Source of the DNA: Planctomycetota bacterium
GTDB taxonomy: Bacteria; Planctomycetota; JAJSAM01; JAJVHW01
Assembly (NCBI GenBank): GCA_024280885.1
Contig: JAJRPF010000044.1
Coordinates: 25,622-89,621, forward strand
Reading direction: 5' to 3'
DNA: 64,000 nucleotides
Below are positions 10,011 to 33,903 of this stretch, one piece after another (the first letter of the stretch is position 1; the number at the start of each line of letters is the position of its first letter). The translations under genes and the position numbers were made by a program. The notes under the pieces were generated by a model. It made no database searches. It was given only the letters and a program-made list of their open reading frames with translations, and was not told the origin of the DNA.

Positions 10011-10163
10011 TTTCCGCATTCGCGTCGCGTGAGCCCGCATGGGGGTGCGCGGATGCGAGCGCCGAATAGCCTCGGAGTATCGACTCGTGCGAGCGCTGTC
10101 TCGGCGGCCCTTCTCTGCACTGGGAGCCGCGGACAGATGTTCGCTCTCGTCCGTCGCGACGTT

Positions 10164-10740
10164 CTATTTCAGCTCGACGGATGTCCAGGTGCTGGGAATG
10201 GAAACGTCGATCCCACTCGGAGCTGGGGGCTCCTCACCCTCGGGGGGCGGCGCCCCGTTCCAGAGCGGCTTCTTGCCGAGCAGGCCGGTGTTCGCGACGG
10301 CGACCGTCGTGAACGGGGGGATGTCGAGGACGTGAGGCGAGAGCCAGATCTCGTACGTCTGGAGTTCCTTCGTACTCACGAACCCACCCACGTCCGTGAG
10401 CACGGACTTGCGCCGCGACTTCCACCGCTTGCCGTCCCATGCGAAGAGCTCGACCGCGACGGAGAGTTGCTTCCCGCGCTTCGGTTTGAGAACGACGCGG
10501 CGGCTGCTCTTGTCGCGCGCGCCCGCTGCCGGATCCGGATGCGCGATCACCTCGACGGCCGTGAGCCGCCCACCGACGCCGGCGATCAGATGCCCGCTCA
10601 CGAGCACTCCGCCGCCGGCCGCGGCGACCGAGGTGTGCGCGGTTCTCGGAGCGTCGTCGGGGACGGTCTCGTCGGGTTTGCCATCGAGCTCGGGGCGGTT
10701 GAGCCAGGCGTGAGAAAAACATGCCCGGCACGGTATTCCC
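10164..10740 (-). CDS. Hypothetical protein or gene fragment (start uncertain)
   Basis: C-terminal ~180 codons have coding-like GC3 usage; no clear start or RBS. Confidence 0.3.
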
Positions 10741-10805
10741 ACTCGTTCCCGGACGACGGCGTCCCGCAGCGCCGAGAATGCCGTGATCGAGCGATTCGCT
10801 GGCTC

Positions 10806-10829
10806 AAAAGGCGCGAAAACAGACCCGGT
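10806..10829 (+). repeat. Solo arm of the AAAAGGCGCGAAAACAGACCCGGT repeat family
   Basis: aaaaggcgcgaaaacagacccggt. Confidence 0.7.
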
Positions 10830-11095
10830 ATGGTCCCGAGTATGGTTCCGGGTCTTGGTCTCTGGACAGCGCAACCAGGGCTCGTAACAGAGTGAGGCGG
10901 CGGGAGTGGATTCCGCCTGCGAAACCAGCACTCGAGACGGGCTCACTTACGAGTCGGGGTCGGCACCGAAGCGCGGTAGTGAACGCCAAGCGCAGCCCCG
11001 GTTGAGCAGCCGGAGCCGCGACCAGAGCCGAACACCCGAGCGAAGCGAGGGGTGGCGACGGAGTCGCCACAGAATGAACGAGGCCGCCCAGGACG

Positions 11096-11518
11096 TCAGT
11101 CCTCCCCGGCCTCCCCGGCCGCCCTCGCCGCCAGGATCGCCTGGATGAGCTGCGCCGGCATGTCGGGCGGTGGGTCGGCGGCGGCGGCGACGCCGCGTGT
11201 CAGCTCGACGCTGCTTCGGAACCCGATCATGTACCGCACGCAATCGGGGCAGATGGCGAGGTGGGACTCGAAGACGATGCGCTTCGCGGCAGGCAGTCGA
11301 TCGGTGATGACGTCGTCCAGGAACGCGGCGATCGCAGCGCAGGTCAGCACGATGGCGTCGCGGCGAACCTCGGTGCATGCCGCGCACACGCGGATATGCG
11401 CTTCCGCAGCCGCGGAGTCCTCGGGCGTACCGCGACCCTGCGCGAGCTTGGCCAGCAAGGCGCGTGCACGCACGCAATCATCCGGAAAATCGGCAGATGG
11501 CCGGTCGCAATCGGTCAC
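11096..11518 (-). CDS. Soluble zinc-binding anti-sigma factor with two tandem zf-HC2 motifs
   Basis: HIRVCAAC and HLAICPDC (HxxxCxxC), each preceded by an upstream Cys; 4-nt overlap with the sigma gene. Confidence 0.85.
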   Translation of the reverse strand: MTDCDRPSADFPDDCVRARALLAKLAQGRGTPEDSAAAEAHIRVCAACTEVRRDAIVLTCAAIAAFLDDVITDRLPAAKRIVFESHLAICPDCVRYMIGFRSSVELTRGVAAAADPPPDMPAQLIQAILAARAAGEAGED

Positions 11519-12114
11519 TCAAGCACTCCCGACAGGTTCTTGCGTTCGAGCAGGGCTTTTAGGAGCTGCCGTCCGCGGTGAATACGCACACGGGCGGCGC
11601 CTGACTCGATCCCGAGTGCAGCGGCCACATCGGCCGTGGACAGTCCCTCGACGTCCCTCAACACCAAAGCCGTGCGCGCTCCTTCCGGTAGCTCGTTGAT
11701 TGTCTCGCGAACGAGCCTGCGCACCTCCGCGCGTTGCGAGATTTCGGGTGGCGTGTCGGCCCACGACGCCTGGCGCGTGATGTAGTGCCCGGTGCTGTCG
11801 TACGTCGGCAGCAGATCGTCCAGGGTGGGCTCGGGATGTCGATCCCGTTTCCGGATACGGAGCAAGCAGGCGTTCACGACGATGCGATGTAGCCACGTGC
11901 CGAGCCCTGCCCGCCCGTCGAATCCGTCGAGTGCGCGGAACGCCGAGAGGAACGCCTCCTGGACGGCGTCCTGCGCGTCGGCGTCCTGCCGCAGGAGACG
12001 CTTTGCGGTGGCGAGGAGGCGGCCGCCGTGGAGCGCGAGGAGCTCGGCAAACGCGGACTCTTCACCGGCGCGCAAGCGCACCAGAAGTCCGGCGTCGGCT
12101 GTCCCTTCCAACAT
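11515..12114 (-). CDS. ECF sigma factor
   Basis: AQDAVQEAFLSAF, FDGRAGLGTWLHRIVVN, RVRIHRGR. Confidence 0.92.
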   Translation of the reverse strand: MLEGTADAGLLVRLRAGEESAFAELLALHGGRLLATAKRLLRQDADAQDAVQEAFLSAFRALDGFDGRAGLGTWLHRIVVNACLLRIRKRDRHPEPTLDDLLPTYDSTGHYITRQASWADTPPEISQRAEVRRLVRETINELPEGARTALVLRDVEGLSTADVAAALGIESGAARVRIHRGRQLLKALLERKNLSGVLE

Positions 12115-12213
12115 CGTGACGCGAGGCTACACCCGGTTCCGGCCCGCGTCACCCCGCCGCGTGAAGTCGCAGTGTCGCGCCTCATCGGCGCGCCCCTGCG
12201 TCACCTCGCAGCA

Positions 12214-13401
12214 TCACCCGGCGGTGTCTGCACGCTGTGTGCGCCGGAGCCAGAGCCAGGCGCCGAGTGTGGCGACGGTCATGGCTCCGCCGACGACGAG
12301 CAGCACGGGGTGTTGGCCGTGGAGATCCACCTGGAAGCCGATCAGTGGGCCGATCACCAGGAAGAGAGCGCGAAAGAGCAGGCTGCGCAGCGAGAGGAAG
12401 CCCGCGCGGTCGCTCGATGGGAGCAGTTTCTGCTCCTCGTGCAGCAGCGCGGGTCCACAGAGCCCGCGTTGGAGGTTGAGGCAGAAGTAGAACGCGAAGC
12501 CGAACGTCCCGAACGAGAGCGCCAGCCCGAAGTAGCCCGTGGCGACGAGCGCGACACAGGCGAGCAACGTGGGGAGCAGACCGAAGCGACCGACGACGCG
12601 ATCGCTCGTGAGCGAGGCGATCGCGACGATGAAGTTTGCGATCGCCCACATGGGGCCGATCCACGGGTCCGGCACGCCGGCTCCGGACGCGTAGAGCGGG
12701 ATCAGCCACACGGGGACGAACGACGCCATCCCGAGCAGCACGGTGAGCAGCACGATCGCCGCGAGTCGCGGATTGCCGCCGAGGACCGTGCGCAGCATGC
12801 GCACGATGCGGCGCAGATGGCCGCCGGGCTCGGGCAGGTGGCGTGCGGGCTCGACCATGCGCCAGGCGATGACGCCCGCGGCGGTCCAGACCCCGAGTTG
12901 GAGCACGAACGGTAGACGCGGCTCGAAGACGTAGAGGAGCCCGGCGAAGAGTGCGGCCGCCCCCTCCGATGTCTGCCCGAAGAAGCGAAAGCGTCCGTCC
13001 CAACGCCGGAACGAGGCCTCGTCGCCCGTCTCCTTCAGCGACTCGAACATGAGTGCGGCGTCGGTGCCCGAAATCAGCGAGATCCCGACTCCGAGCAGCG
13101 CCTCGGCGGCGGCCGCCCACCAGAAACTGTCGGCCATGCAGTAGAGGCCCCAGCCGAGCACGTTCAGGGCGCTGCCGATGAGCAGCGAGCGGCGGTATCC
13201 GAGGCGATCGGCCAGGTATCCCGACGGAAACTCGAAGAGCGCGACCGAGAGCCCGAAGAGCCCTTGCAGCAGCAGGATCTCGTGCATCGACATCCCGAGC
13301 CGTCGCTGCCAGAAGAGCGTGATGATCGCCACCGGGAAGAGCGTCATCTGCAGTCCGTGGAAGGCGCAGAGCAGGCGAGGGTTGCGATCGAGTGCGCGCA
13401 T
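12214..13401 (-). CDS. MFS transporter
   Basis: About 12 hydrophobic segments; motif A FEFPSGYLADRLGYRRSL. Confidence 0.9.
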   Translation of the reverse strand: MRALDRNPRLLCAFHGLQMTLFPVAIITLFWQRRLGMSMHEILLLQGLFGLSVALFEFPSGYLADRLGYRRSLLIGSALNVLGWGLYCMADSFWWAAAAEALLGVGISLISGTDAALMFESLKETGDEASFRRWDGRFRFFGQTSEGAAALFAGLLYVFEPRLPFVLQLGVWTAAGVIAWRMVEPARHLPEPGGHLRRIVRMLRTVLGGNPRLAAIVLLTVLLGMASFVPVWLIPLYASGAGVPDPWIGPMWAIANFIVAIASLTSDRVVGRFGLLPTLLACVALVATGYFGLALSFGTFGFAFYFCLNLQRGLCGPALLHEEQKLLPSSDRAGFLSLRSLLFRALFLVIGPLIGFQVDLHGQHPVLLVVGGAMTVATLGAWLWLRRTQRADTAG

Positions 13402-23709: not shown

Positions 23710-23817
23710 CGCATGCTCCGTGGTGGGCCGCGCAGTGTAGCGGGCGCCGCGCCGCAGAGAGATCCCTGATAACGGTCGCTCAACGCGTGCGTCTTGTTCT
23801 GTGACGACTCATCCCCC

Positions 23818-23921
23818 AGACCGGGTCTGCTTTTGCGCCTTTTCGGTCTGGCGGGGATATCGAAGCGAAAGTAGCGCTGGACTGAGGAGTCGGAGAAAAG
23901 GCGCGAAAGGAGACCCGGTCT
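23818..23921. repeat. 104-bp element with 26-bp terminal inverted repeats (MITE/REP-like)
   Basis: agaccgggtctgcttttgcgcctttt ... aaaaggcgcgaaaggagacccggtct. Confidence 0.8.
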
Positions 23922-23929
23922 GTCCGAGC

Positions 23930-24559
23930 GTGACTGTTGACGTATTGCCGTTGCCCGTGGATCGTCGGAGTGTGAATTTGCCGCCACCGGACGACGCTGG
24001 GCTCGATGCATCCACGGAGGTTTCCACGGATACGTCCGGAGAGACGCGCTGGGCGGTGGCCGCTCGCTCGGGGGATCGCTTCGCGTTCGCACGGCTGCAC
24101 GAGCGCTTTGCGGGGCTCGTGCACGGTGTGCTGCTCGCGCGGGCGCCGGCGCGGGATGCGGACGATCTTGTGCAGGATGTCTTCGCGACCGCGCTCGAGC
24201 GGATCGACAACTTGCGTGACCCCGCGCGCTTCGGGGCGTGGATCACGCAGATTGCCCGCAATCGGGCGACGGATCATCTGCGGCGCAGCAGTCATCGGAA
24301 GAGCGAGCCGTTGCCCGATGAGGATGCGCTGCGTTCCCGCGGTGTCAGCGCGGAGCAGCGGGCGGCGGCCGCCGAGGCGCTCGCGGCGATCCGGGCGTTG
24401 CCCGAAGCGTATCGCGAAACGTTGGTTCTGCGCCTGGTGGAAGGCATGAACGGTCCCGAGATCGCGGAGCGCACCGGACTGACGCCGGGGTCGGTCCGCG
24501 TCAATCTGCATCGGGGAATGCGCCTTCTGCGCAAGCGCCTCGGTCAGGAGGTGAAGTGA
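23930..24559 (+). CDS. ECF sigma factor (start uncertain)
   Basis: DDLVQDVFATAL, FGAWITQIARN, LTPGSVRVNLHRG. Confidence 0.9.
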   Translation: MTVDVLPLPVDRRSVNLPPPDDAGLDASTEVSTDTSGETRWAVAARSGDRFAFARLHERFAGLVHGVLLARAPARDADDLVQDVFATALERIDNLRDPARFGAWITQIARNRATDHLRRSSHRKSEPLPDEDALRSRGVSAEQRAAAAEALAAIRALPEAYRETLVLRLVEGMNGPEIAERTGLTPGSVRVNLHRGMRLLRKRLGQEVK

Positions 24560-25620
24560 TGAGCGACGACCGCCCCTCGAATGACGATCGTCCGAACGAT
24601 GATCGTCCCAATGACTATCGCGCCAACGACTACCTTTGGGACGGCTCTGGTGATGCGGACCCCGATGTCGTGCGCTTGGAGGAGTCGCTCTCCATGTTCC
24701 GGTATCGGCCGGAGGCGCGCGAGGCGGTGTCCCCGGACGTGCGCGGTCGTCTGCCTGCGTTCGAGCCGGTGCGGCGCGGGGGGACGCTGCGCGCTCTTGC
24801 TGCTGCGGCGCTCATGATCGTGTCGGTCGGAGCCGCGTGGACGGTGGGGCGGTCGGCGCGCGTCGGCGTTCCCGAGGGGCCGCGCGCCGGCTGGAGTGTC
24901 GCGGTTCTGAACGGCGCTCCGCATCTGGACGGTGGAGCGTTGACCGGCGACGGCGTACTCGTCGTCGGCGGTCGTCTCGTGACCGATGCGACGTCCACGG
25001 CACGGGTGCAGGTGGCCGACATTGGTCGTGTCGATGTCGCCCCCAACTCCAGCGTTCGTCTGTTGCGCACGGGTGCCGACGAGCACCGCTTGGCGCTCGA
25101 CCATGGGATGATCGCGGCGGTCGTCACGGCGCCCCCACGGCTCTTCCTCGTGGAGACCCCGGCGGCGCTCGCTGTCGATCTCGGCTGCGCGTACGAGTTG
25201 GAAGTCGATGCCGACGGCCGCGGTGAGTTGCGCGTCCTGACCGGTTGGGTCTCGTTGGAACGCGGTGGCGGCGAGTCCGAAGTCCCGGCGGGTGCCGTGT
25301 GCCGCATCGACCCAGAGTACGGTCCCGGGATACCTCGCTACGCGTTGTCGTCTGCGTCCTATGGCGCGTTGTTGGACGCGGTGGAGCGCGGGGATCGGTC
25401 GGTCGAGATCGTCGCGCGCATCCTCGCGAGTGCGCCGCCCGCCGACACGCTCTCGCTCTTCCATCTTCTCTTCCGCGTGGATGCGGCGCAGCGCCGCGCA
25501 GTCGTCGATGCCATCATCGCTCGCGAAGAGTTGCCCGAGGGCGTCGATGTGGATGCGTTGTCTCGTCTGGATCCCGAGGCGATCGGAGTGTGGCGTGAGG
25601 ATATTCGCTGGACCTGGTAG
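24556..25620 (+). CDS. FecR-domain anti-sigma factor
   Basis: Overlaps sigma stop; YLWDGSG motif, one TM helix, FecR-like VETPAALAVDLGCAY. Confidence 0.8.
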   Translation: MMSDDRPSNDDRPNDDRPNDYRANDYLWDGSGDADPDVVRLEESLSMFRYRPEAREAVSPDVRGRLPAFEPVRRGGTLRALAAAALMIVSVGAAWTVGRSARVGVPEGPRAGWSVAVLNGAPHLDGGALTGDGVLVVGGRLVTDATSTARVQVADIGRVDVAPNSSVRLLRTGADEHRLALDHGMIAAVVTAPPRLFLVETPAALAVDLGCAYELEVDADGRGELRVLTGWVSLERGGGESEVPAGAVCRIDPEYGPGIPRYALSSASYGALLDAVERGDRSVEIVARILASAPPADTLSLFHLLFRVDAAQRRAVVDAIIAREELPEGVDVDALSRLDPEAIGVWREDIRWTW

Positions 25621-25661: not shown

Positions 25662-28600
25662 TCAGTGAAAGTCGCGACTCGGGCGACTCCGTGGTTGCCG
25701 ATCGATCGACGGTTGCCACAGGCTTTGCGCGACGAGATGCGTTACGCCTTGCTCGACCTGCAATTTGCCGGAGATGCCGAGGAAGTTGTTGCCGCGGGCG
25801 AGGGCGCTGAAGCGATCGAAGACCTGTTTCCAGATGACGACGTTCACGAAGCCGGTTTCGTCTTCCATCGTCATGAACGTGACTCCCGACGCAGTACCGG
25901 GGCGCTGGCGGCAGATGACGATGCCGGCGAAACGTACGCGACGGCCGTCGGGCCAGGTGGTCAGCGTGCGCGCGTCGGGGAGACCCTGGTCGGAGAGCAC
26001 GTCGCGCAACTCGGCGAGCGGATGGCCGCGGGTGCTGTGGCGCGCGGCGTCGTAATCCCAACTGATGGTCTCGAGCGCGTCGAGAGCGCGCAGGTTCGCG
26101 CTGCGTTCGCGGACCTCGATCGGTAGGTATGCGCGGTCTCCGGCGACGGGGGCACTACGCACCAATGCGCGCACTTCCCAGAGTGCGTCGCGACGGGTGT
26201 CCCCGAAGATCTCGAAGGCTCCCGCTTCGGCCAACGCGATGAGTGCGCGTTCGTTGACGGTCGTGCGCGCGACGAAATCAGCGAGTGACGTGAAGGACCG
26301 GAGAGCGCGTGCCGCGGTGATCTTCTCGCGTTCGCGCGAGCCGAGTTGCTTGACGTAGCGGAGTCCCATGCGGATGGCGAAGCCGCCAGTGCTGATCGGG
26401 TCCGGCGTGAGAGTGCAATCCCACGCGCTCGCGTTCACGCCGACGGGGAGGATCGTGACGCCGTGGCGCTTGGCGTCGTCCACAAGCGTGGCCGGTTCAT
26501 AGAAGCCCATCGGCTGCGCGTTCAGCAGTGTGCATGTGAACTCGGGCAGATAGTGCCGACGCAGCCAGGACGTTGCATACGAGATCAGCGCGAAGCTCGC
26601 GGCATGGCTCTCGGGGAAACCGTACTCGCCGAAGCCGCGAATCTGCTCGAAGACGCGTTCCGCGAAGCTCGGTTCGATACCCTTGGCCGTCATGCGTGTG
26701 AGGAGCCGATCGCGATGCTTCTCGATGCGCCCGGTCTTGCGCCACGCGGCCATGTCGCGCCGTAGTTGATCAGCCTCGCCCGGCGTGTAGTCGGCAGCGA
26801 CCACGGCGAGTCGCATCACCTGTTCCTGGAAGATGGGTACGCCGAGTGTCTTCTCCAGAACGGGGATCAGGCAGGCATGCGGATAGACCACCTCTTCCTC
26901 GCCGCGACGGCGGCGCAGGTACGGATGCACCATGCCGCCAGTGATGGGGCCCGGACGCACGATGCTGACCTCGATGACGAGATCGTAGAAGTTGCGCGGA
27001 CGCAGGCGCGGCAGCATCGCCATCTGGGCGCGGCTCTCGATCTGGAAGACGCCGACCGTGTCGCCGCGACAGATCATGTCGAAGGTCTCCGAGTCGTTCG
27101 CGGGGATTGTCGCCATTGAGAGTTCGCGCTTGCGCGTCTGCCGTAGCAGATCGAAGCAGAGATGCAGATGATGCAGCGCGCCGAGACCGAGAAGATCGAC
27201 CTTGAAGAGTCCGAGCGCCTCGACGTCTTCCTTGTCCCACTGGATGACGGTGCGGTTCGGCATCGTCGCGTTCTCAATCGGTACGAGATCATGGACCGGC
27301 GCATGGCCGAGCAGGAAGCCGCCGGGATGAATGGAGAGATGCCGCGGGAAGTCGAGGATCTCGTTCGCGAGGCGCAGCAGATGCGCATGTGCACCAGTGT
27401 TGCCAATGTTGTTCATCCCAGTGTCGTTTGTCCCCGCGCGTTCGAGGGCGCTCGTATCCACTCCTTCCCAGCGTGAGAGTTGGCGCGCAAGGCGGTCGAG
27501 TCCCGTCTCCGGCATCCCGAGCGCCTTGCCGACGTCGCGCACTGCCGAACGCGGCCGGTAGCGGATGAGATTGGCGACCATCGCGGCGTGGCTGCGGCCG
27601 TACTTCGCGTAGACGTGCTGGATCACCTCCTCGCGGCGCGCGTGCTCGATGTCGAGATCGATATCCGGCGGCTCGGCGCGCTCCATCGACAGGAAGCGCT
27701 CGAAGAGCAGACCCATGCGCACCGGATCGACGGCGGTGATCCCGAGGCAGTAGCAGACGGCGGAGTTGGCGGCCGAGCCGCGACCCTGGCAGAGGATGCT
27801 CTCGTCACGGCAGAAGCGGACGATCTCCCACATCGTCAAGAAGTAGCCCGGATAATCGAGCGCGTCGATGACGGTGAGTTCCTTGTCGAGTTGATTGCGC
27901 ACCTCGGTGGGCGCAGCACTGCCGTAGCGATCCACCGCGCCGCGGCGCACCAACTCGCGTAACCATTCCGACGACGTGCGGCCGTCGGGGAGGCGCTCGG
28001 ATGGGTAGCGGTAACGGATCTCGTCCATCGAGAACGTGCAGCGCGACGCGATCTCGAGGGTGCGTTCGAGGGCGGCGGGATCGTCACCAAAGAGCGCGTT
28101 CATCTCGGCGGGAGAGGGCAGATGATGTTCGGCGTTCTGACGCAGGAGTTGGCCGGCAGCCGAGAGCGTCACGCCGTGTCGGATGCACGTCAGGATGTCC
28201 TGCAGGTCGCGGCGAGAGCGCGCGTGGTAGAGCACCTCGGTGCCAGCGACGATGGGGGTGTCGAGTTGCGCCGCGAGTCGACGCAGCCGCGCTTCGCGAG
28301 CCGGCTCGTTGGCCTGCCGGTGACGGGTGACGAGAGCGTAGATCCGATCCCCGAAAGCATCCCGCAGGTTGGAATGCGGTGCTTTGGCTCCGTACATGGC
28401 GATGAGGCCTTCGGAGGCTGCGCAGACTTCCTCCCAGGTGACGCGGCTCGCGCCCTTCTCGGAGCGCAGACGGCCGGTCGTGATCAGTTTGCAGAGGCGC
28501 GCGTACGCAGGGCGGTCGGTGGCGAGCAGTGTGATGTCGCTGAGGTCGCCATCGTGTGGCCCGACGTTTACCTGCGAGCCGACGATCAGGTGCAGCCCGT

Positions 28601-28820
28601 GCTTCTTCGCGGCGACGTGCGCGCGCACGATCCCGTACACACCGTCGCGGTCGGTCACCGCAAGCGAGCGCAACCCAAGATGGCGCGCCTCTTCCACCAA
28701 CTCGTCCGGCGCGCTCGCGCCTTCCAGGAAGGAGAAGTGTGTCTTGCACCACAGCGGGACGTAGGTGCTCACGTCGTGACTTCCCGTCTCATTCGTGACG
28801 TCATTCGCCGCACTATTCAA
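25662..28820 (-). CDS. dnaE2: Error-prone DNA polymerase DnaE2/ImuC (alternative start GTG 28772)
   Basis: PHP domain ([10 protein letters not shown]), [28 protein letters not shown]; C-terminal SRDFH signature. Confidence 0.96.
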
Positions 28821-30444
28821 GCGTTCCGTGCAGGTACCAGCGGCGCCGCCGCCGGTCGTGGAAGACCCAGAAGAGGTCGCCGCGCGCGGTCTCTGCGAAG
28901 TGGTACTCGCGGTGAATTCCCGCTTGCACGCCGCCGTACTCGCCGGGTGGCGTTCCCCACCATGCGCCCGCGAGCACGTAGGGCCCGACGGAACGTCGCA
29001 CCGGGCCGCGTTCCATCCCCGCGAGCAACCATCCGTCGGGTTCGTGGCGGGGGCGAGGCGGGAGGATTGCGGGGCGGGTGAGGATGCGTCGGATGAGGGA
29101 GAGTGGGCCGTTGGCGGCGCGCATCCGCGGGTCGGGGAAGTGCACCTTCTCGACGGGAGTGAGGGCGAACGATGCCTCGGGGAGATGGCCGCCAGCGAGT
29201 CGCGCTTGTACCACGGAATAAGGACCGAGTTGCGCGCGGACGCGGGCGAGTGCGCGGGCGGCGGCCTTCAGATCGCGGCGCGGATTCTCGCGGAAGAGGC
29301 GCAGTTGTTCGGGACGCGCATAGACGCCGCGCGCGGTCAGGATCGCCTCCTCGACGCCACGCCCGAGACCGCGGTGCATGACCATCGCTTCGAGGCGCAG
29401 ACGCAGCAGCTCGAGGGCCTGCGCCGCGTCGAGCGTCGGGGCGGCGGGGCGCGCCTCCATCAGCCGCGGGGGACCGTCCTCCATCGAGAGCCGCAAGTGC
29501 AGCGAGACGAGCGCTTCGCGGCGCGCGGCGATCTCGGCGAGAAGGGGTGGCACCGCTTCTTCGATTGCGTAGAGCAAGCGATCGGTCTTCGTCTCCGGCA
29601 TCTCGAAGTGGATGCGGCGCACCGGCGGCTCGGTGGGTGGCCGGGCGGCAAGTGGCCGGATGAGCTCCCCCGACGCGGTGCGATGCAGGGCTTCGGCTTT
29701 CTTCCCGAAACGCGTCGCGACGCCTTCGGCCGGCAGTCGCAGGAATTCGTCCACGTTGCGGACGCCGAGTCGCCGAAGAGCGTCATGCAGTTTCGGCGCG
29801 ATGTCGAGTCGCGCGAGGGGCACGCGCCCCACCAGTCGACGCTCCTCTTCCTCGTCGACGACCAGATGCGCGCCGCCGCGTGATGCGCGCGCAAGCGCGT
29901 AGGTGCCGAAGCGTCCGAAGCCGCAGACCACGCTGCCCTGGAGATCCTCGGCGACGAGTGCCGTGTGGAGCCGTTCCGCCCATTCGAGGAGCGACGGATG
30001 CAGCCGCACGAGCCCGCCCGCGTCGATCCAGAAGACGCCCGGTTCGTGGTGAGCGGGTTCGACGGCGGGGGAGAAATTGTCGAGCAGGCGCGCCACCTCG
30101 TCCACTCCCGCAGCGATCTCCTCGGGCGATACTTCGGCCGCCGCGAGCCCCGGACAGATCCCCAATGCCGCGGCGTAGCGTTGCCCGGGCAGGACACGGC
30201 TTTGGCGCCCTTCCTCGTTGACCCACAGGATGCGTCCCTGCGGGTGATCGCGGTCCACCACCGCCGCCGGGCCCGCGCTGAACTCCGGCTGCCGTCGGAG
30301 AAGCAACTGGAGCGGAAACGCTGGCAGATCAACGCACGCCAACCGCTCCCGGGGGCCGTCGAGCCGCCGTTTCTGAGTGGGTCGTTTGCCCTCGTCCTGT
30401 TCCCTGTCCGTCCGCACTGTCCGTCCGCCTCCTTCTGCAGACAT
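28813..30444 (-). CDS. imuB: ImuB, Y-family polymerase-like mutasome accessory protein
   Basis: [14 protein letters not shown]-terminus; FSPAVE; C-terminal WW...REY...LFWVF motif; directly upstream of dnaE2. Confidence 0.9.
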
Positions 30445-30453
30445 ATGTCTGTA
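30436..30453. promoter_or_regulatory. Candidate LexA (SOS) box overlapping the imuB start codon
   Basis: TGCAGAC-ATAT-GTCTGTA palindrome; matches the site upstream of lexA. Confidence 0.7.
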
Positions 30454-30481
30454 TAGCATGGCAGGGACACGATACGAACTC

Positions 30482-30722
30482 AGAGGGTGTTCCCATAAAC
30501 AGTGGGAGCGCCAGCTTGCTCGTGGAGCCTGTCAGCAAGGCGCGGTCGCGAACGCGACTCCTGACGGAGTCATCGAGCGTCCGCAACGCAGCTGACAGGT
30601 TCCACGGGCAAGCCGCTTGCGGGCGCGCGATGTGCGCCGCGAGACTGGGGCACAGGCCGTCGAGGCCGTCCGAGCGCACATCGTGTGACTGGCGCCCCAT
30701 TGTTTATGGGAACACTCTCTTA
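30482..30722. repeat. ERIC/MITE-like element between vapC and imuB
   Basis: Terminal IR 30482-30514 / 30689-30720; inner hairpin 30515-30536 / 30591-30612 with aaggcgc..cgcgactc..gagtc..caacgcag core shared with 14096-14267. Confidence 0.75.
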
Positions 30723-31124
30723 GGCGGGGAGGAGCGTGATGGGGACGTCGAGGCCCGGCGCGGCGGCCATCCGGCGGTCTTTTGTCAGGACCCGTCCACC
30801 GACGCGGGCGGCCAGTGCGACGTAGAGCGCGTCGTAGAGGGAGAGATTGCCGCGGCGCTTCCATGCTCCGTTCAGGAGGAGGCAATGGGGGATGCGTTTG
30901 ATCTGGACGAGCGCGAGCATGCGGACCAGGTTTCGAGCCTCCACTCGAGTGAGTTCTCCGTGACGTTCGCAGCGAGCCAACGCGGATAGCACCTCTGCGT
31001 CGATCAACTCGGGCGCGCACACGTATCTGGACTCGAGAGCGCGACGTACTTCCTCCGCGCCGTCCTCGCGGAGCAGCATGGCGACGAGGGCCGAGGCGTC
31101 GATGACTGTGATGCCTGGCCTCAT
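30720..31124 (-). CDS. vapC: PIN-domain toxin (VapC/FitB family)
   Basis: VIDASALV, DAEVLSAL, SLYDALYVALA, LTKD acidic PIN residues. Confidence 0.9.
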   Translation of the reverse strand: MRPGITVIDASALVAMLLREDGAEEVRRALESRYVCAPELIDAEVLSALARCERHGELTRVEARNLVRMLALVQIKRIPHCLLLNGAWKRRGNLSLYDALYVALAARVGGRVLTKDRRMAAAPGLDVPITLLPA

Positions 31125-31375
31125 GGCATCCTCTCTTCCAACTCTGCTTCGCGCTCACGACGCACCGCAGCAATCATCTCGGCGGCCGATTCGGTCGTCT
31201 TGGTGGGGCCGAGCCGGTCGAGTTCCTCGAGCCACTCTTGGACCGTGGGGAGAGCCACTTCCCGCTCCAGCAGGCCGAGCACGTAGTCGCGGAGGCTGAG
31301 ACCGTCCAACTCTGCGCGCAACCGCAACTCGGCGTGCAGCCTTTGGGGGACATTCTTGATCTGGAGGTTGCTCAT
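31121..31375 (-). CDS. FitA-like ribbon-helix-helix antitoxin
   Basis: MSNLQIKNVPQRLHAELRLRAELDGLSLRDYV; ATGA overlap with the PIN gene. Confidence 0.85.
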   Translation of the reverse strand: MSNLQIKNVPQRLHAELRLRAELDGLSLRDYVLGLLEREVALPTVQEWLEELDRLGPTKTTESAAEMIAAVRREREAELEERMP

Positions 31376-31525
31376 GGCCTCATCATAGCATGCTACTGGC
31401 ATGTTCGCGCCTCGGTGGTTCGCTGCGGTACGCCTCGTACTCCCCTACTTCCCAGGTCGCACGGCGGCGGCGAAGGTTACGCAGGTTTCTGGAACAACCC
31501 GGTCGGAGTGCCAGAGGACTCGGAG

Positions 31526-32332
31526 CTACGACGTGGGGAGCAGGGACTCCACGCCTTCGGGGGCGCGGCAGGGCAGGGCGTCGGTCCAGCGGCCGGGGCG
31601 GCGGCGGTCGCGGAGGACGTCGAGGACTGCGAGGCAGGTGCCGTGTCCGGAGTCCAGGTCGGTCGAGCCCGAATCGGTCGAACTGGGACTGAGGGGAGCG
31701 CGGCGGGCCGCGGCGCGGAGCGAGATCAGGGGCCCGAGGGAGGCTGCGTCGTCGGATTTCTCGGTCAGGCAGACGACCGCGGCTTCGTGCTCGCGGGCCA
31801 GGGCAGCGAGGCGGTTGAGGAGTGCGGGCGGAATGCGCACGCGGCTCCCGGCGGAGCCGAGGTCAAGGATCACTAGGCCGAAGGCGCCGGAGCGCACGAG
31901 CCGTTCGGCCGCGCGTGGGACGTCGGCTGACCTCGGCGCGCGAACGATCGGGAGTGCGGCGAGATCGACCCCGGTTCGGGCGGCGTCGGGAGGGAAGAAG
32001 AGGTCGGCATCGACACCCACCCAGGCCGTCGTTTCGCCACAGCGCTGCGCGTCGCGGACGAGAGCCAGCGCCAGTGTCAGCACCGCCGTCGCTCTGCCCG
32101 ATCTGTGTCCACTCGAATCACGGCCACCAGCGCGATCGATCAGGTTCTTGCCCGTGTGGGAAGAGAGCTCGACGAGTCGCCCGACGACTTCTGCGAATCG
32201 CCACCGGGCTGGGCTTTTCCCCACTGCATTCGAGCCGTGCGAAGCCGAGCGGTCCACAGTCATGCCGCGGCGCACGCCCGGCACTTGCAGCGATCCCCAA
32301 GCTTCCAGAGAACCGGATGGGAGGCGTCTCAT
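31526..32332 (-). CDS. imuA: ImuA, RecA-like mutasome protein
   Basis: GRLVELS, FFPPDAARTGVDLAALPIVR, LVRSGAFGLVILDLG; ATGA-coupled to lexA. Confidence 0.85.
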   Translation of the reverse strand: MRRLPSGSLEAWGSLQVPGVRRGMTVDRSASHGSNAVGKSPARWRFAEVVGRLVELSSHTGKNLIDRAGGRDSSGHRSGRATAVLTLALALVRDAQRCGETTAWVGVDADLFFPPDAARTGVDLAALPIVRAPRSADVPRAAERLVRSGAFGLVILDLGSAGSRVRIPPALLNRLAALAREHEAAVVCLTEKSDDAASLGPLISLRAAARRAPLSPSSTDSGSTDLDSGHGTCLAVLDVLRDRRRPGRWTDALPCRAPEGVESLLPTS

Positions 32333-32976
32333 ACGAGACTCCTGCGTACCTCGATCACACGTCCCAGGATTCTGAAATCAGCGCGCGCGGGGACGATGAC
32401 CTCGAAGTCGGGGTTCTCGGGATGCAACTCGGCCCGGCGACGCCCGCGGGGATCCTTCCCGTAGCGCAACGTCTTGACGGTTGCGTCGTCGCCGACCGAG
32501 GCCACGACGACATGACCGTCGCGCGGTCTTCCGGAACTCAGCCTTCCGGAACGGCGCACGATGACCACATCGCCGTCGAGGATGCCCGCGTCGCGCATGC
32601 TCTCGCCCACGACGCGCAACGCGAAGAGGTCATCCGCGACAACTCCGCGCGGCAGCGCCGTCATGGCGACGTGGCCGTCGGGGTCCTCGATCGCCGCGCT
32701 CAGACCGCCAGCTTGCACGCGACCGACCATCGGTACGAGTACCGGCCGGAGTTCACCCTCCGAACCATGCGGCAGGCGATAGCCGCGCGAGACGCCCGCC
32801 TCTTTCGTGAGCCGCCCGTCGGCCACCAAGCGCTCGAGGTGCGTACGGGCGGACTCGACCGCGCGTAGACCGGCCGCCTCTTGCACTTCGCGTACTGTTG
32901 GCGGCCGGCCCGCAAGCAACCGCTCACGCACGAAGCGATAGATGCGTTCCCGGGTCTCGCCGCGCGCTCTTTGCAT
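32329..32976 (-). CDS. lexA: LexA repressor
   Basis: PPTVREV wHTH; VQAG cleavage site; VGESM (Ser) and ATVKT (Lys) catalytic dyad; LHPENPDF. Confidence 0.93.
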   Translation of the reverse strand: MQRARGETRERIYRFVRERLLAGRPPTVREVQEAAGLRAVESARTHLERLVADGRLTKEAGVSRGYRLPHGSEGELRPVLVPMVGRVQAGGLSAAIEDPDGHVAMTALPRGVVADDLFALRVVGESMRDAGILDGDVVIVRRSGRLSSGRPRDGHVVVASVGDDATVKTLRYGKDPRGRRRAELHPENPDFEVIVPARADFRILGRVIEVRRSLV

Positions 32977-32994
32977 GTCGGCACAATAGCATGT

Positions 32995-33016
32995 GATACA
33001 GACGGATGTCCGTATC
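32995..33016. promoter_or_regulatory. Candidate LexA (SOS) box upstream of lexA
   Basis: GATACAGAC-GGAT-GTCCGTATC, 9-bp arms with 1 mismatch. Confidence 0.75.
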
Positions 33017-33030
33017 GTTGGCTGTGCTGC

Positions 33031-33903
33031 TTATCCCACGATGATCCGGCGATCCACCTCCATGCGCCGGCGGCGGAGGTGGAAGGTGAGGCCGACGAGC
33101 CCGAGCGCGAAGAGGGCCCACGTGCCCGGCTCGGGTGTGCGGGCGACGTCCATGCCGCCGCCCGATCCACCACCGCTATTCGCGCCGAACGTGAAGCGGT
33201 CGGCTGCCCAACGGTCCGTCTTACTGCCGACGAGTACGACGGCCTGATCGAATGCGAGGCCGCCATCGGCCGGGTCCGTGATGACGCCGAGGAAGCGCGT
33301 CGATCCGTTGCCGCCGCCCGATCCCAGCACGAAGTCACTCGTGAAGACGAGGAGCCCCGCCGCGTAGAGACGGAGTTGGCCCTCGCTCCCGACACCCGTC
33401 TCGAAGTCGATGAGATCGACGCCGAAGTGGCTGACTCCTCCGGCCGGCGACGTCGTGAAGTCCACGAGCAGGCCGCTGCGTCGTGACGTGCTGACGGCGG
33501 TGCTGTCCACGCCCCAGCTGCCGCTGCCGACGCCACCGCTCTGGCTTGTGGGCGACTCGACCTTGATGGAACTGAGTGCGCCGGTATCGCCACCGACCAC
33601 TCCGGGCGTGATCGTGCCCGTGGGCGTCGCGGAAAACTGCAGGTCGAATGCCGTGTAGCTGAACGCGGCCCCGCCGACGGTCCCGGAGCGGGAGACCGAC
33701 GCGACCGAGCCGACCGTCGGGTCGGCTGCGAATGCGCCGCCCGAGTCGATCACCGTGGAGTCGCCGCGCGTGGCGACGGCGGATTCGAAGCCTGCGCGAT
33801 CGTCGTTGAAGATGGTGTACGAGCCGCCGCGCGCGACGGTCGCGGCGAAGGTCACGAGGACGAGAGACAGGACGTACGAGAGGTGCTGAGCAAGGGAATT
33901 CAT
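33031..33903 (-). CDS. PEP-CTERM sorting-domain surface protein
   Basis: Signal peptide; Ser/Gly/Thr-rich body; C-terminal TPEPGTWALFALGLVGLTFHLRRRR. Confidence 0.9.
   Translation of the reverse strand: MNSLAQHLSYVLSLVLVTFAATVARGGSYTIFNDDRAGFESAVATRGDSTVIDSGGAFAADPTVGSVASVSRSGTVGGAAFSYTAFDLQFSATPTGTITPGVVGGDTGALSSIKVESPTSQSGGVGSGSWGVDSTAVSTSRRSGLLVDFTTSPAGGVSHFGVDLIDFETGVGSEGQLRLYAAGLLVFTSDFVLGSGGGNGSTRFLGVITDPADGGLAFDQAVVLVGSKTDRWAADRFTFGANSGGGSGGGMDVARTPEPGTWALFALGLVGLTFHLRRRRMEVDRRIIVG

What the first reader, a model, noticed from the sequence alone, without database searches (positions are those of the whole stretch)
30482..31525. FitA/VapC toxin-antitoxin module embedded inside the lexA-imuA-imuB-dnaE2 SOS cassette
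Seen: co-directional RHH antitoxin (31121-31375) and PIN toxin (30720-31124) plus a 240-bp IR element sit between imuA and imuB. Known: imuA-imuB-dnaE2 is normally contiguous. The TA pair has its own -10 and a TAGCATGCTA palindrome (31386-31395), similar in style to RHH antitoxin operators. Inference: lexA-imuA read-through could couple DNA-damage induction to a PIN RNase (damage-induced dormancy with mutagenesis), or the module may stabilise the cassette. The imuB promoter would compensate for the interruption.
Basis: partly seen in the sequence, partly recalled or inferred. Interest (0 to 1): 0.75.

Follow-up and report, generated by a model that had tools for sequence, protein, structure and literature searches.

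The report
Toxin-antitoxin pair inside SOS mutagenesis cassette
An intact toxin-antitoxin gene pair really does sit between two genes of a DNA-damage-induced error-prone-polymerase cassette and has been inherited there across an uncultured planctomycete lineage, but some close relatives have lost it, and the neighbouring "inverted-repeat element" is just a recently inserted miniature transposon.

Summary
On the minus strand the order is lexA, imuA, an RHH antitoxin, a PIN toxin, a 237-nt inverted-repeat element, imuB and dnaE2.

The PIN toxin has a VapC fold and its four acidic residues are invariant among relatives. The pair is under purifying selection and matches its neighbours in dS and GC3.

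Of 12 cassettes from the same uncultured lineage (one contig labelled Planctomycetota):
- six carry this RHH-PIN pair between imuA and imuB;
- three carry a different AbrB/MazE-PIN pair at that junction (one carries both);
- one carries another PIN pair between imuB and dnaE2;
- two carry none, and one of those nests inside the RHH-PIN group, so it lost the pair.

All 12 keep a second AGAC-N4-GTCT LexA-type box and promoter in front of imuB. About 40 outgroup cassettes have imuA and imuB contiguous, and the 12 examined for boxes have none before imuB.

The IR element is a MITE of an IS5-family element. It is inserted at the PIN stop codon and is absent in a 95-97% identical strain.

Best reading: a long-resident, dispensable VapBC-type module sits in a promoter-bearing spacer. 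SOS coupling by read-through from lexA-imuA, as in E. coli dinB-yafNO, is plausible but untested. Interest is moderate.

The parts
32329..32976 (-). Cassette-linked lexA (215 aa)
   Evidence: Pfam Peptidase_S24 74 bits plus LexA_DNA_bind 27 bits. It overlaps imuA by ATGA.
32999..33012 (.). LexA-box-like palindrome CGGACATCCGTCTG upstream of lexA. It is followed by the extended -10 TGCTATTGT (32983-32991), and the ATG lies 6 nt after the -10.
   Evidence: One of only two exact matches to CRGACANNNGTCTG in the window. It is conserved upstream of lexA in clade loci. AGAC-N4-GTCT palindromes also lie upstream of cassette lexA in outgroup phyla.
31526..32332 (-). imuA (268 aa)
   Evidence: Weak RecA-like Pfam match. 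Homologues are 55-96% identical and always lie next to lexA in cassettes.
31441..31480 (-). Conserved non-coding block GTAACC-N14-GCGACCTGG..GTAGGGG. It resembles an ECF-sigma promoter (AAC-N16-CGAC). Its function is unknown.
   Evidence: Conserved in the window, L117, L017, L018 and L019 and in L026, which carries only the AbrB/MazE-PIN pair. Absent in L016 and L122. The ECF-sigma resemblance is from my own knowledge.
31382..31395 (-). TAGCATGCTA palindrome (31386-31395) overlapping the extended -10 TGCTATGAT. Candidate TA promoter and operator.
   Evidence: AGCATGCTATGAT is invariant in six loci, although the coding dS is about 1 and the stretch is made of A/T-ending codons in a gene with GC3 0.79.
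31121..31402 (-). RHH antitoxin, either 93 aa from ATG 31402 or 84 aa from ATG 31375
   Evidence: FitA-like_RHH, E 5.7e-5. The AF2 model has an N-terminal extended segment followed by helices 11-23 and 28-41, then two C-terminal helices. dN/dS is 0.06-0.33.
30720..31124 (-). PIN (VapC-type) toxin, 134 aa
   Evidence: PF01850, 58 bits. D9, E44, D98 and D116 are invariant. AF2 pLDDT is 94.8. The best Foldseek matches are PAE0151 and M. tuberculosis VapC toxins. dN/dS is 0.09-0.30.
30483..30719 (.). MITE (237 nt, about 23-28-nt terminal inverted repeats). It is inserted at the PIN stop codon and flanked by TAA (30720-30722) and TGA (30480-30482).
   Evidence: The empty site in L117 (95-97% identical) reads CCCGTC-TGA-GTTCAC. 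Copies 99.5% identical lie at other flanks in L119 and L120, and a 1.48-kb IS with the same ends is in L118. The L118 IS carries DUF4096 plus DDE_Tnp_1 transposase.
30438..30455 (-). imuB promoter: -10 TATACA (30450-30455) overlapping the LexA-box-like palindrome CAGACATATGTCTG (30438-30451)
   Evidence: An exact palindrome. TATACAGACAT[AC]TGTCTG is conserved in front of imuB in all clade loci, including the TA-less L122 and L123. L024 has the same box type in its divergent lexA/imuB spacer. It is absent before imuB in the 12 outgroup cassettes examined.
28813..30417 (-). imuB (534 aa from GTG 30417, SD AAGGAGG 30428-30434)
   Evidence: Pfam IMS. The start is inferred from the SD and from the 534-aa call in L117.
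25662..28820 (-). dnaE2 (imuC), 1052 aa
   Evidence: Pfam PHP, DNA_pol3_alpha, finger, HHH_6 and OB.

Best explanation
The pair is an intact type II toxin-antitoxin module of the VapBC/FitAB kind.

Inferred mechanism, from family knowledge:
- The RHH antitoxin would bind the invariant AGCATGCT palindrome that overlaps the module's own extended -10. This would repress its own promoter.
- The antitoxin's C-terminal helices would neutralise the PIN toxin.
- The toxin would be a Mg2+-dependent RNase using D9/E44/D98/D116.

What the comparisons show:
- The module sits in the spacer between two separately LexA-boxed transcription units of a mutagenesis cassette: lexA-imuA, and imuB-dnaE2.
- It has been inherited vertically with the cassette through an uncultured lineage (one related contig is labelled Planctomycetota).
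- It is an accessory part of the cassette. At the same junction some relatives carry a second, unrelated PIN pair (AbrB/MazE type), some carry only that one, and two carry none.
- imuB has its own LexA-box promoter in every member, including the basal one with a divergent layout. The spacer was therefore probably a permissive landing site, and the insertion cost nothing.

SOS coupling (inferred): no terminator lies in the 123 nt after imuA. LexA cleavage after DNA damage could therefore add read-through transcription of the pair on top of its own promoter, as in E. coli dinB-yafNO.

The 237-nt inverted-repeat element is a MITE of an IS5-family element. It landed on the TGA stop codon of the toxin gene in this strain only. 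It leaves a stop codon (TAA) in place and adds a strong hairpin between the toxin gene and the imuB promoter.
For: Identity and intactness:
- Pfam PIN 58 bits and FitA-like RHH E 5.7e-5; ATGA overlap.
- D9, E44, D98 and D116 are invariant in 11 homologues.
- AF2 pLDDT 94.8 with VapC structures as best matches.
- The antitoxin model has RHH-like helices.

Long residence:
- The same pair sits at the same junction in L016, L017, L018, L019 and L117.
- Identities track ImuB: ImuB 91/84/77/77% against PIN 83/76/61/60%.
- dN/dS is 0.06-0.33, and dS (0.7-1.7) is like that of lexA, imuA, imuB and dnaE2.
- GC3 is 0.79, against 0.77-0.81 for the neighbours.
- Flanking chromosomal genes are syntenic.

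Accessory nature:
- An AbrB/MazE-PIN pair occupies the junction in L019 (second pair), L023 and L026.
- L024 has another PIN pair between imuB and dnaE2.
- L122 and L123 have none.
- L122 nests inside the RHH-PIN group on the ImuB tree: 100/100 for the group, 91/87 as sister of the window.

Two LexA-boxed units:
- The exact palindromes occur only at 32999-33012 and 30438-30451.
- They are conserved in all clade loci.
- In 12 outgroup cassettes checked for boxes, none has one before imuB; nine have one or two AGAC-N4-GTCT palindromes upstream of lexA. imuA and imuB are contiguous in about 40 outgroup cassettes.

Own promoter: TCATGCC...AGCATGCTATGAT is invariant.

No terminator-like site in 30200-33200.

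MITE: empty site in L117; other copies and the parent IS.

Precedent: yafNO is transcribed both from the SOS-regulated dinB promoter and from its own autoregulated promoter (PMC2814082).
Against: - Toxicity, neutralisation, operator binding and LexA binding are all untested.
- The RHH Pfam score is below the curated cut-off, and the antitoxin's fold search gave no significant match.
- The antitoxin start is unresolved, and the putative operator may lie inside the coding sequence.
- No RNA data exist.
- The terminator scan finds only canonical T-tailed hairpins, which may be rare at 67% GC, so its negative result is weak.
- The repeated presence of PIN pairs in or beside mutasome cassettes could mean more than passive residence: L020, L114, L024, L039, L041, and a second PIN pair downstream of dnaE2 in L018.
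- The clade sample is 12 metagenomic contigs, several of them short.
Confidence: 0.7

Rival explanations
1. The pair is functionally integrated as an SOS brake. It is selectively retained because damage-induced read-through from the LexA-controlled lexA-imuA unit (or antitoxin degradation under stress) releases the PIN RNase. The RNase transiently halts translation and growth while the ImuA-ImuB-DnaE2 mutasome works.
For: - The pair is maintained at one junction over divergence where dS is saturated, under purifying selection.
- 10 of 12 clade cassettes keep at least one PIN pair inside the cassette.
- No terminator was found after imuA.
- The same RHH-PIN family sits 4 nt after the stop of a LexA-boxed dnaE2 in the unrelated L020.
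- An RHH-PIN pair lies between imuB and dnaE2 in a Geminicoccaceae genome.
- The dinB-yafNO precedent.
Against: - L122 lost the pair, and L123 has none, yet both keep the junction around it intact: lexA, imuA, the imuB promoter and the start of imuB, plus full imuB and the start of dnaE2 in L122.
- The TA promoter has no LexA box.
- Two unrelated antitoxin types and different positions suggest turnover rather than one co-adapted part.
- In this strain a MITE hairpin sits right after the toxin gene, and its absence from the near-identical L117 marks it as a recent insertion.
- There are no expression data.
- The enrichment of TA pairs near cassettes was not significant in my small control: 4 PIN hits in about 1.2 Mb of outgroup loci.
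Confidence: 0.2
2. The pair acts as a cassette stabiliser. By post-segregational-type killing it protects the imuA-imuB-dnaE2 segment against deletion, or against loss when the cassette moves on mobile DNA.
For: - The review PMC3901139 reports cassettes on plasmids and in many configurations across bacteria.
- TA pairs of several kinds lie inside or at the edges of cassettes in different phyla.
Against: - Here the cassette lies in a conserved chromosomal neighbourhood (HhH-GPD, TPR, PEP-CTERM genes) with host-like GC3, not on a mobile element.
- The pair was deleted cleanly in L122 while the cassette stayed. Loss of the TA alone is therefore tolerated, and the cassette persists without it.
Confidence: 0.08
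3. The pair is a domesticated or inactive module. The PIN protein is no longer toxic, and the RHH protein serves mainly as a transcription factor for the cassette region.
For:
- The operator-like palindrome is very strongly conserved.
Against: - All four acidic residues are invariant here.
- The fold is confidently VapC-like.
- Both genes are under purifying selection with the typical overlapping arrangement.
Confidence: 0.04

Closest known systems
E. coli dinB-yafN-yafO-yafP operon (SOS-regulated type II TA inside a translesion-polymerase operon)
   Same: - A type II TA pair lies co-directionally inside a LexA-controlled error-prone-polymerase gene cluster.
- The pair has its own antitoxin-autoregulated promoter, and an SOS promoter further upstream can read into it. 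This two-promoter arrangement is shown for yafNO in PMC2814082.
- The gene content of the dinB operon varies among strains (PMC3105422 abstract), like the presence or absence seen here.
   Different: - The toxin here is a PIN/VapC RNase with an RHH antitoxin, not the ribosome-dependent YafO with YafN.
- The host cluster is lexA-imuA-imuB-dnaE2, not dinB.
- The pair lies between two LexA-boxed units rather than downstream of the polymerase gene.
- Co-transcription is not shown here.
VapBC / FitAB type II toxin-antitoxin systems (solved examples: FitAB-DNA 2bsq, M. tuberculosis VapBC complexes, PAE0151 2fe1)
   Same: - PIN fold with four acidic residues.
- An upstream, overlapping antitoxin gene with an N-terminal RHH-type DNA-binding part and C-terminal helices.
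- A palindrome at the promoter.
   Different: - Sequence identity to solved VapCs is only 13-32%.
- The antitoxin scores below Pfam's cut-off.
- The RNA target, toxicity and operator binding are unknown.
lexA2-imuA-imuB-imuC (dnaE2) mutagenesis cassette, e.g. Pseudomonas putida
   Same: The same four genes lie in the same order with a cassette-linked lexA and a LexA box before it. PMC3901139 describes the P. putida cassette as one LexA2-controlled transcription unit, and notes split configurations where each part has its own SOS box.
   Different: - Here the cassette is split into two co-directional LexA-boxed units, with a TA pair (and in this strain a MITE) in the spacer.
- The box is AGAC-N4-GTCT.
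IS5-family MITEs
   Same: - About 240 nt, non-coding, with 23-28-nt terminal inverted repeats and a TNA flank.
- Several near-identical copies exist.
- A full-length IS with the same ends carries DUF4096 plus DDE_Tnp_1.
   Different: The subgroup was not assigned. The left copy of the flank reads TAA and the right TGA, so the duplication is either inexact or has since mutated. Both are stop codons.

Membership tests
VapBC/FitAB type II toxin-antitoxin | Toxin with PIN-domain fold | tested here: met
   PF01850 scores 58.1 bits against a cut-off of 23.6. The AF2 model has pLDDT 94.8 and pTM 0.88. Foldseek top hits are PAE0151 (E 4e-8) and M. tuberculosis VapC30/11/15.
VapBC/FitAB type II toxin-antitoxin | Four conserved acidic active-site residues | tested here: met
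   D9, E44, D98 and D116 are invariant in an alignment of 11 homologues with 48-82% identity.
VapBC/FitAB type II toxin-antitoxin | Small antitoxin gene immediately upstream, translationally coupled | tested here: met
   The antitoxin stop and the toxin start overlap as ATGA at 31121-31124. The same arrangement occurs in the relatives.
VapBC/FitAB type II toxin-antitoxin | Antitoxin with an N-terminal ribbon-helix-helix DNA-binding domain | tested here: inconclusive
   PF22513 FitA-like_RHH gives E 5.7e-5 but 23.4 bits, below the 27-bit cut-off. Relatives carry precomputed PF22513 hits. The AF2 model (pLDDT 74) has an extended N-terminus followed by two helices. Foldseek finds no significant match, though FitA, Arc, CopG and AtaR head the list.
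VapBC/FitAB type II toxin-antitoxin | Autoregulation through an operator palindrome at its own promoter | tested here: inconclusive
   AGCATGCT plus TATGAT are invariant in six loci. Binding is untested, and the site may lie inside the coding sequence if ATG 31402 is the start.
VapBC/FitAB type II toxin-antitoxin | Toxicity of the PIN protein and its neutralisation by the antitoxin; RNase activity | not testable with these tools
   This needs expression assays.
SOS-regulated TA (dinB-yafNO type) | LexA-controlled promoter upstream, in the same orientation | tested here: met
   The palindrome CGGACATCCGTCTG plus an extended -10 lie before lexA. The same box type occurs before cassette lexA genes across phyla. 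Actual LexA binding is not tested.
SOS-regulated TA (dinB-yafNO type) | Co-transcription with the SOS genes and induction by DNA damage | not testable with these tools
   No RNA runs hold the stretch. No terminator-like site was found, which is weak evidence only.
imuA-imuB-dnaE2 mutagenesis cassette | lexA, RecA/SulA-like imuA, Y-family-like imuB and DnaE-type polymerase genes, co-oriented | tested here: met
   Pfam. Orthologous cassettes were found in more than 50 loci.
MITE of an IS5-family element | Terminal inverted repeats, no coding capacity, short length | tested here: met
   The arms are 28 nt and 89% complementary. The element is 237 nt. The overlapping 123-aa ORF has no Pfam hit.
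MITE of an IS5-family element | Empty site in a close relative and short target flank | tested here: met
   L117 (95-97% nucleotide identity) reads ...CCCGTC TGA GTTCAC.... The window reads ...CCCGCC TAA [element] TGA GTTCG.... Other copies are flanked by TTA or TAA.
MITE of an IS5-family element | Multiple copies at different sites, and a full-length IS with the same ends | tested here: met
   L119 and L120 carry 99.5% identical copies with different flanks. L118 has the same ends about 1.48 kb apart, enclosing DUF4096 (77 bits) and DDE_Tnp_1 (33 bits) ORFs.

The most novel reading that the evidence does not exclude
PIN-type toxin-antitoxin pairs may be a selectively retained accessory of ImuA-ImuB-DnaE2 mutasome cassettes in several phyla. 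They occur at the imuA|imuB junction in this planctomycete lineage, at imuB|dnaE2 in Alphaproteobacteria such as L114, and directly after dnaE2 in L020. In that reading, damage-induced transcription or antitoxin turnover releases an RNase that arrests growth while error-prone synthesis proceeds. SOS mutagenesis and transient dormancy would then be hard-wired together.
Probability: 0.15. Interest if true: 0.8.

Novelty: new variant of a known kind. Interest (0 to 1): 0.45.

Why it matters
SOS-induced mutagenesis and toxin-mediated growth arrest are usually studied apart. E. coli dinB-yafNO is the one well-known case where a TA pair rides in an error-prone-polymerase operon.

Here a VapBC-type pair has stayed inside the other widespread mutagenesis system, ImuA-ImuB-DnaE2, over long evolutionary time. 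I found no paper describing that.

The lineage offers natural controls: an RHH-PIN pair, an AbrB/MazE-PIN pair, both, or none, all with the same two LexA-boxed promoters. That makes 'passenger or partner?' directly testable.

If the pair is only a passenger, the case still shows how a promoter-bearing spacer inside an operon-like cluster becomes a landing pad for selfish modules and MITEs.

Tried and rejected
- **TIR as LexA boxes.** I first took TGTTC-N4-AAACA in the element's arms for a pair of LexA boxes of the Verrucomicrobia type (from memory). Rejected: the arms are the ends of a mobile element found elsewhere, and the cassette's conserved box is AGAC-N4-GTCT.
- **Structured RNA.** Rfam gave only sub-threshold miRNA-like noise on the hairpin. 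The strong fold is explained by the MITE's nested inverted repeats.
- **Coding ORF in the element.** The 123-aa ORF at 30329-30700 has no Pfam hit.
- **'Every clade member keeps at least one PIN pair at the junction'**, suggested and the tree. Rejected by L122 and L123.
- **Conserved hairpin in the GTAACC...GCGACC block.** The candidate stems differ between loci, by inspection. It remains unexplained.
- **Candidate third box.** A 2-mismatch palindrome at 10130-10143 has no recognisable repair gene next to it. Dropped.
- **Close relatives in the species-representative genomes.** None found; the best DnaE2 match was 68%. The TIR pattern gave only a chance hit there.
- **Tools.** I therefore could not count MITE copies or PIN pairs in the window's own genome.
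- **RNA evidence.** No RNA runs were found. The DNA holders are metagenomes, and I did not lay them.
Full report
**1. What is there**

On the minus strand the window carries, in order:
- lexA (32976-32329);
- imuA (32332-31526);
- a small RHH gene (31402 or 31375 to 31121);
- a PIN gene (31124-30720);
- a 237-nt inverted-repeat element (30719-30483);
- imuB (30417-28813);
- dnaE2 (28820-25662).

Pfam confirms each gene:
- LexA: Peptidase_S24 plus LexA_DNA_bind.
- ImuA: a weak RecA-like match.
- Antitoxin: FitA-like_RHH, E 5.7e-5, 23.4 bits, below the 27-bit cut-off.
- Toxin: PIN, 58 bits.
- ImuB: IMS.
- DnaE2: the full DnaE domain set.

The antitoxin and toxin genes overlap by ATGA. The palindrome TAGCATGCTA is at 31386-31395 and overlaps an extended -10, TGCTATGAT.

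**2. The toxin-antitoxin pair is intact**

- In an alignment of 11 homologues (48-82% identity), D9, E44, D98 and D116 are invariant.
- The AlphaFold model of the PIN protein is confident (pLDDT 94.8).
- Its best structural matches are PAE0151 and M. tuberculosis VapC toxins, with FitB further down the list. PAE0151 is also the only sequence-level PDB match.
- The antitoxin model (pLDDT 74) has an extended N-terminus, two helices as in ribbon-helix-helix proteins, and two further C-terminal helices.
- The antitoxin's fold search is not significant, although FitA, Arc, CopG and AtaR head the list. The RHH assignment is likely but not proven.

**3. It is an old resident, not a recent insertion**

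The closest PIN homologues (83, 76, 61 and 60% identity) all lie in the layout lexA-imuA-RHH-PIN-imuB(-dnaE2). These are on metagenomic contigs L016-L019, one of them labelled Planctomycetota. A 95-97% identical strain, L117, has the same layout.

Several measures agree that the pair has co-diverged with the cassette:
- Divergence of the pair tracks that of the cassette. ImuB is 91/84/77/77% identical, PIN 83/76/61/60%, and the antitoxin 88/87/56/58%.
- dN/dS is 0.06-0.33 for both genes.
- Their dS (0.7-1.7) is like that of lexA, imuA, imuB and dnaE2 (0.65-1.1).
- GC3 (0.79) matches the neighbours (0.77-0.81).
- The chromosomal flanks (HhH-GPD, TPR and PEP-CTERM genes) are syntenic.

**4. But it is an accessory**

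ImuA homologues led to further cassettes of the same clade, which has 100/100 support on an ImuB tree.
- L023 and L026 carry a different pair at the same junction: an AbrB/MazE-type antitoxin plus an unrelated PIN, with its own TATAAT-like -10 and ATCGTTTAACGAT palindrome.
- L019 carries both pairs in tandem.
- The basal L024 has lexA-imuA divergent from imuB, and a third kind of PIN pair between imuB and dnaE2.
- L018 has an extra RHH-PIN pair after dnaE2.
- L122 and L123 have no TA at all between imuA and imuB.
- L122's ImuB is 88% identical to the window's. It nests inside the RHH-PIN group (100/100) as sister of the window plus L117 (91/87). It has therefore lost the pair while keeping lexA, imuA, imuB and the visible start of dnaE2.

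In total, 10 of 12 clade cassettes hold at least one PIN pair. The pair is nonetheless dispensable and subject to turnover.

**5. Regulation**

*The LexA-type box.* The exact palindrome CRGAC-A-N3-GTCTG occurs only twice in 64 kb.
- One copy lies before lexA (32999-33012). It is followed by TGCTATTGT, and the ATG comes 6 nt after the -10.
- The other lies before imuB (30438-30451) and overlaps the -10 TATACA.
- Both are conserved in all clade loci, including the TA-less ones and L024.

*Outgroups.* I checked 12 outgroup cassettes for boxes.
- Nine have one or two AGAC-N4-GTCT palindromes upstream of lexA. They are from Myxococcota, other Planctomycetota, Hydrogenedentota, Vulcanimicrobiota and Acidobacteriota.
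- Three have no box of this type upstream of lexA.
- None has a box before imuB.
- In about 40 outgroup cassettes imuA and imuB are contiguous.

So this box travels with the cassette's own lexA. The second copy, with the imuB promoter, is a feature of this clade.

*Order of events.* L024 already has two units, so the split probably came first and gave a spacer where insertions are harmless. Split cassettes with separate SOS boxes are known in general (PMC3901139).

*The TA pair's own signals.* TCATGCC-NNN-AGCATGCTATGAT is invariant in six loci. The stretch is made of A/T-ending codons in a GC3-rich gene, which argues for a DNA-level role as operator and -10. It contains no LexA box.

*The antitoxin start.* Two starts are possible.
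- ATG 31375 (84 aa) would give a leaderless mRNA from TATGAT.
- ATG 31402 (93 aa) has a GAGG 7 nt upstream.
- The extension MPxACY from ATG 31402 is conserved with synonymous changes.
- In L020 ATG 31402 is the only in-frame ATG.

*Other points.* A further conserved block, GTAACC-N14-GCGACC (31455-31480), resembles an ECF-sigma promoter (my own knowledge) and is unexplained. No terminator-like site lies between lexA and imuB, so SOS read-through from lexA-imuA into the pair is plausible. No RNA data were available.

**6. The inverted-repeat element is a MITE**

- L117 shows the empty site...CCCGTC-TGA-GTTCAC-TGTCCCTGCC.... The window reads ...CCCGCC-TAA-[GAGAGTGTTCCC...GGGAACACCCTC]-TGA-GTTCG....
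- Two other contigs (L119, L120) hold 99.5% identical copies with different flanks (TTA).
- L118 has the same ends about 1.48 kb apart. They enclose DUF4096 and DDE_Tnp_1 transposase ORFs, marking an IS5-family element, and are flanked by TAA and TGA.
- The element therefore inserted at the toxin's stop codon (TNA target). A stop codon was retained.
- It added a strong hairpin (-153 kcal/mol, z -9.7) upstream of the imuB promoter.
- It is strain-specific and unrelated to the TA pair's biology. It might hinder any transcription running from the pair into imuB.

**7. Wider pattern**

PIN pairs also lie in or next to cassettes elsewhere:
- The same RHH-PIN family (49-53% identity) sits 4 nt after the stop of a dnaE2 that is preceded by a GAAC-N4-GTTC box, in L020.
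- An RHH-PIN pair lies between imuB and dnaE2 in a Geminicoccaceae genome, L114.
- PIN pairs sit divergently just upstream of lexA in two Vicinamibacterales genomes, L039 and L041.
- A DUF6036/AbiEii-like nucleotidyltransferase pair lies between imuA and imuB in L033.

Earlier AI notes of this scan report more cases at imuB|dnaE2 in Alphaproteobacteria and Chloroflexota. These are leads only. I checked only L114 myself.

My small control does not show significant enrichment: 4 PIN hits in about 1.2 Mb of outgroup loci. The next most similar PIN homologue (50% identity, L022) lies among glycosyltransferase genes.

**8. Literature**

Full-text searches found no paper linking TA pairs to imuA/imuB/dnaE2 cassettes. 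Two comprehensive surveys of DnaE and Y-family neighbourhoods do not mention toxins or PIN.

The nearest precedent is E. coli dinB-yafNO-yafP. There yafNO is transcribed both from the SOS-controlled dinB promoter and from its own autoregulated promoter (PMC2814082).

**9. Verdict**

- Most likely (0.7) this is an intact VapBC/FitAB-type module that has long resided in a promoter-bearing spacer of a split, doubly LexA-boxed mutagenesis cassette.
- It is dispensable and subject to replacement and loss.
- It possibly receives extra SOS-driven transcription.
- A dedicated SOS 'growth brake' role is not excluded (0.15-0.2) and would be of real interest.
- The MITE is ordinary.

Noticed in passing
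window 32999-33012 and 30438-30451; L002, L035, L037, L053, L060, L061, L063, L079 upstream of lexA: The candidate LexA box of this cassette (AGAC-N4-GTCT, often CCAGACA[AT]ATGTCTGG) is not specific to this organism. It precedes the cassette-linked lexA in several phyla. It therefore looks like the operator of the LexA that travels with the cassette, comparable to P. putida LexA2. Only this clade has a second copy before imuB.
   Followed up: partly
window 31441-31480 (-): A conserved non-coding block, GTAACC-N14-GCGACCTGG..GTAGGGG, lies at or just after the imuA stop. It occurs in most clade loci, including L026, which carries only the AbrB/MazE-PIN pair. Its spacing fits an ECF-sigma promoter (AAC-N16-CGAC). 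No consistent hairpin was found and its function is unknown.
   Followed up: partly
window 23801-25620 (+): An ECF-type sigma factor ORF (23801-24559) is followed by an overlapping putative anti-sigma ORF (24556-25620), convergent with dnaE2. I read this from the translations only and ran no family search. It may be relevant to the ECF-like motif above, but this neighbourhood is not conserved in L018 or L019.
   Followed up: no
window 32983-32991, 31382-31390, 30450-30458 (-): Three extended -10 elements (TGCTATTGT, TGCTATGAT, TGCTATACA) precede lexA, the antitoxin and imuB. At lexA and at the antitoxin (ATG 31375) the ATG lies 6 nt downstream, which suggests leaderless mRNAs. imuB instead has an SD (AAGGAGG) and a GTG start.
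   Followed up: partly
L033:7754-8750 and 10590-13099: A Vicinamibacterales cassette has a 151-aa ORF plus a DUF6036/AbiEii-like nucleotidyltransferase ORF between imuA and imuB. Between imuB and dnaE2 it has a roughly 3-kb block that includes a 534-aa ORF read by eye as methylase-like (no family search run). This is another invaded cassette.
   Followed up: partly
L114:1-4035: A Geminicoccaceae (Alphaproteobacteria) contig has the 3' end of imuB, then an RHH antitoxin, then a PIN toxin, then dnaE2, with only 36 nt between the PIN gene and dnaE2.
   Followed up: partly
L020:2380-6396: A dnaE2 (42% identical to the window's) is preceded by CGAACATATGTTCG plus a -10 and an apparently leaderless ATG. 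An RHH-PIN pair of the window's family follows 4 nt after its stop. No imuB was detected in the locus.
   Followed up: partly
L045:1110-1439: A Latescibacteria cassette has a TfoX_N-domain gene between imuA and imuB, and a roughly 4-kb insert between imuB and dnaE2.
   Followed up: no
window 32281-32323 versus L117:669-777: The lexA-imuA junction differs between the window (ATGA overlap) and the 95-97% identical L117 (66-nt gap, different ImuA N-terminus). There is a local indel or rearrangement here.
   Followed up: no
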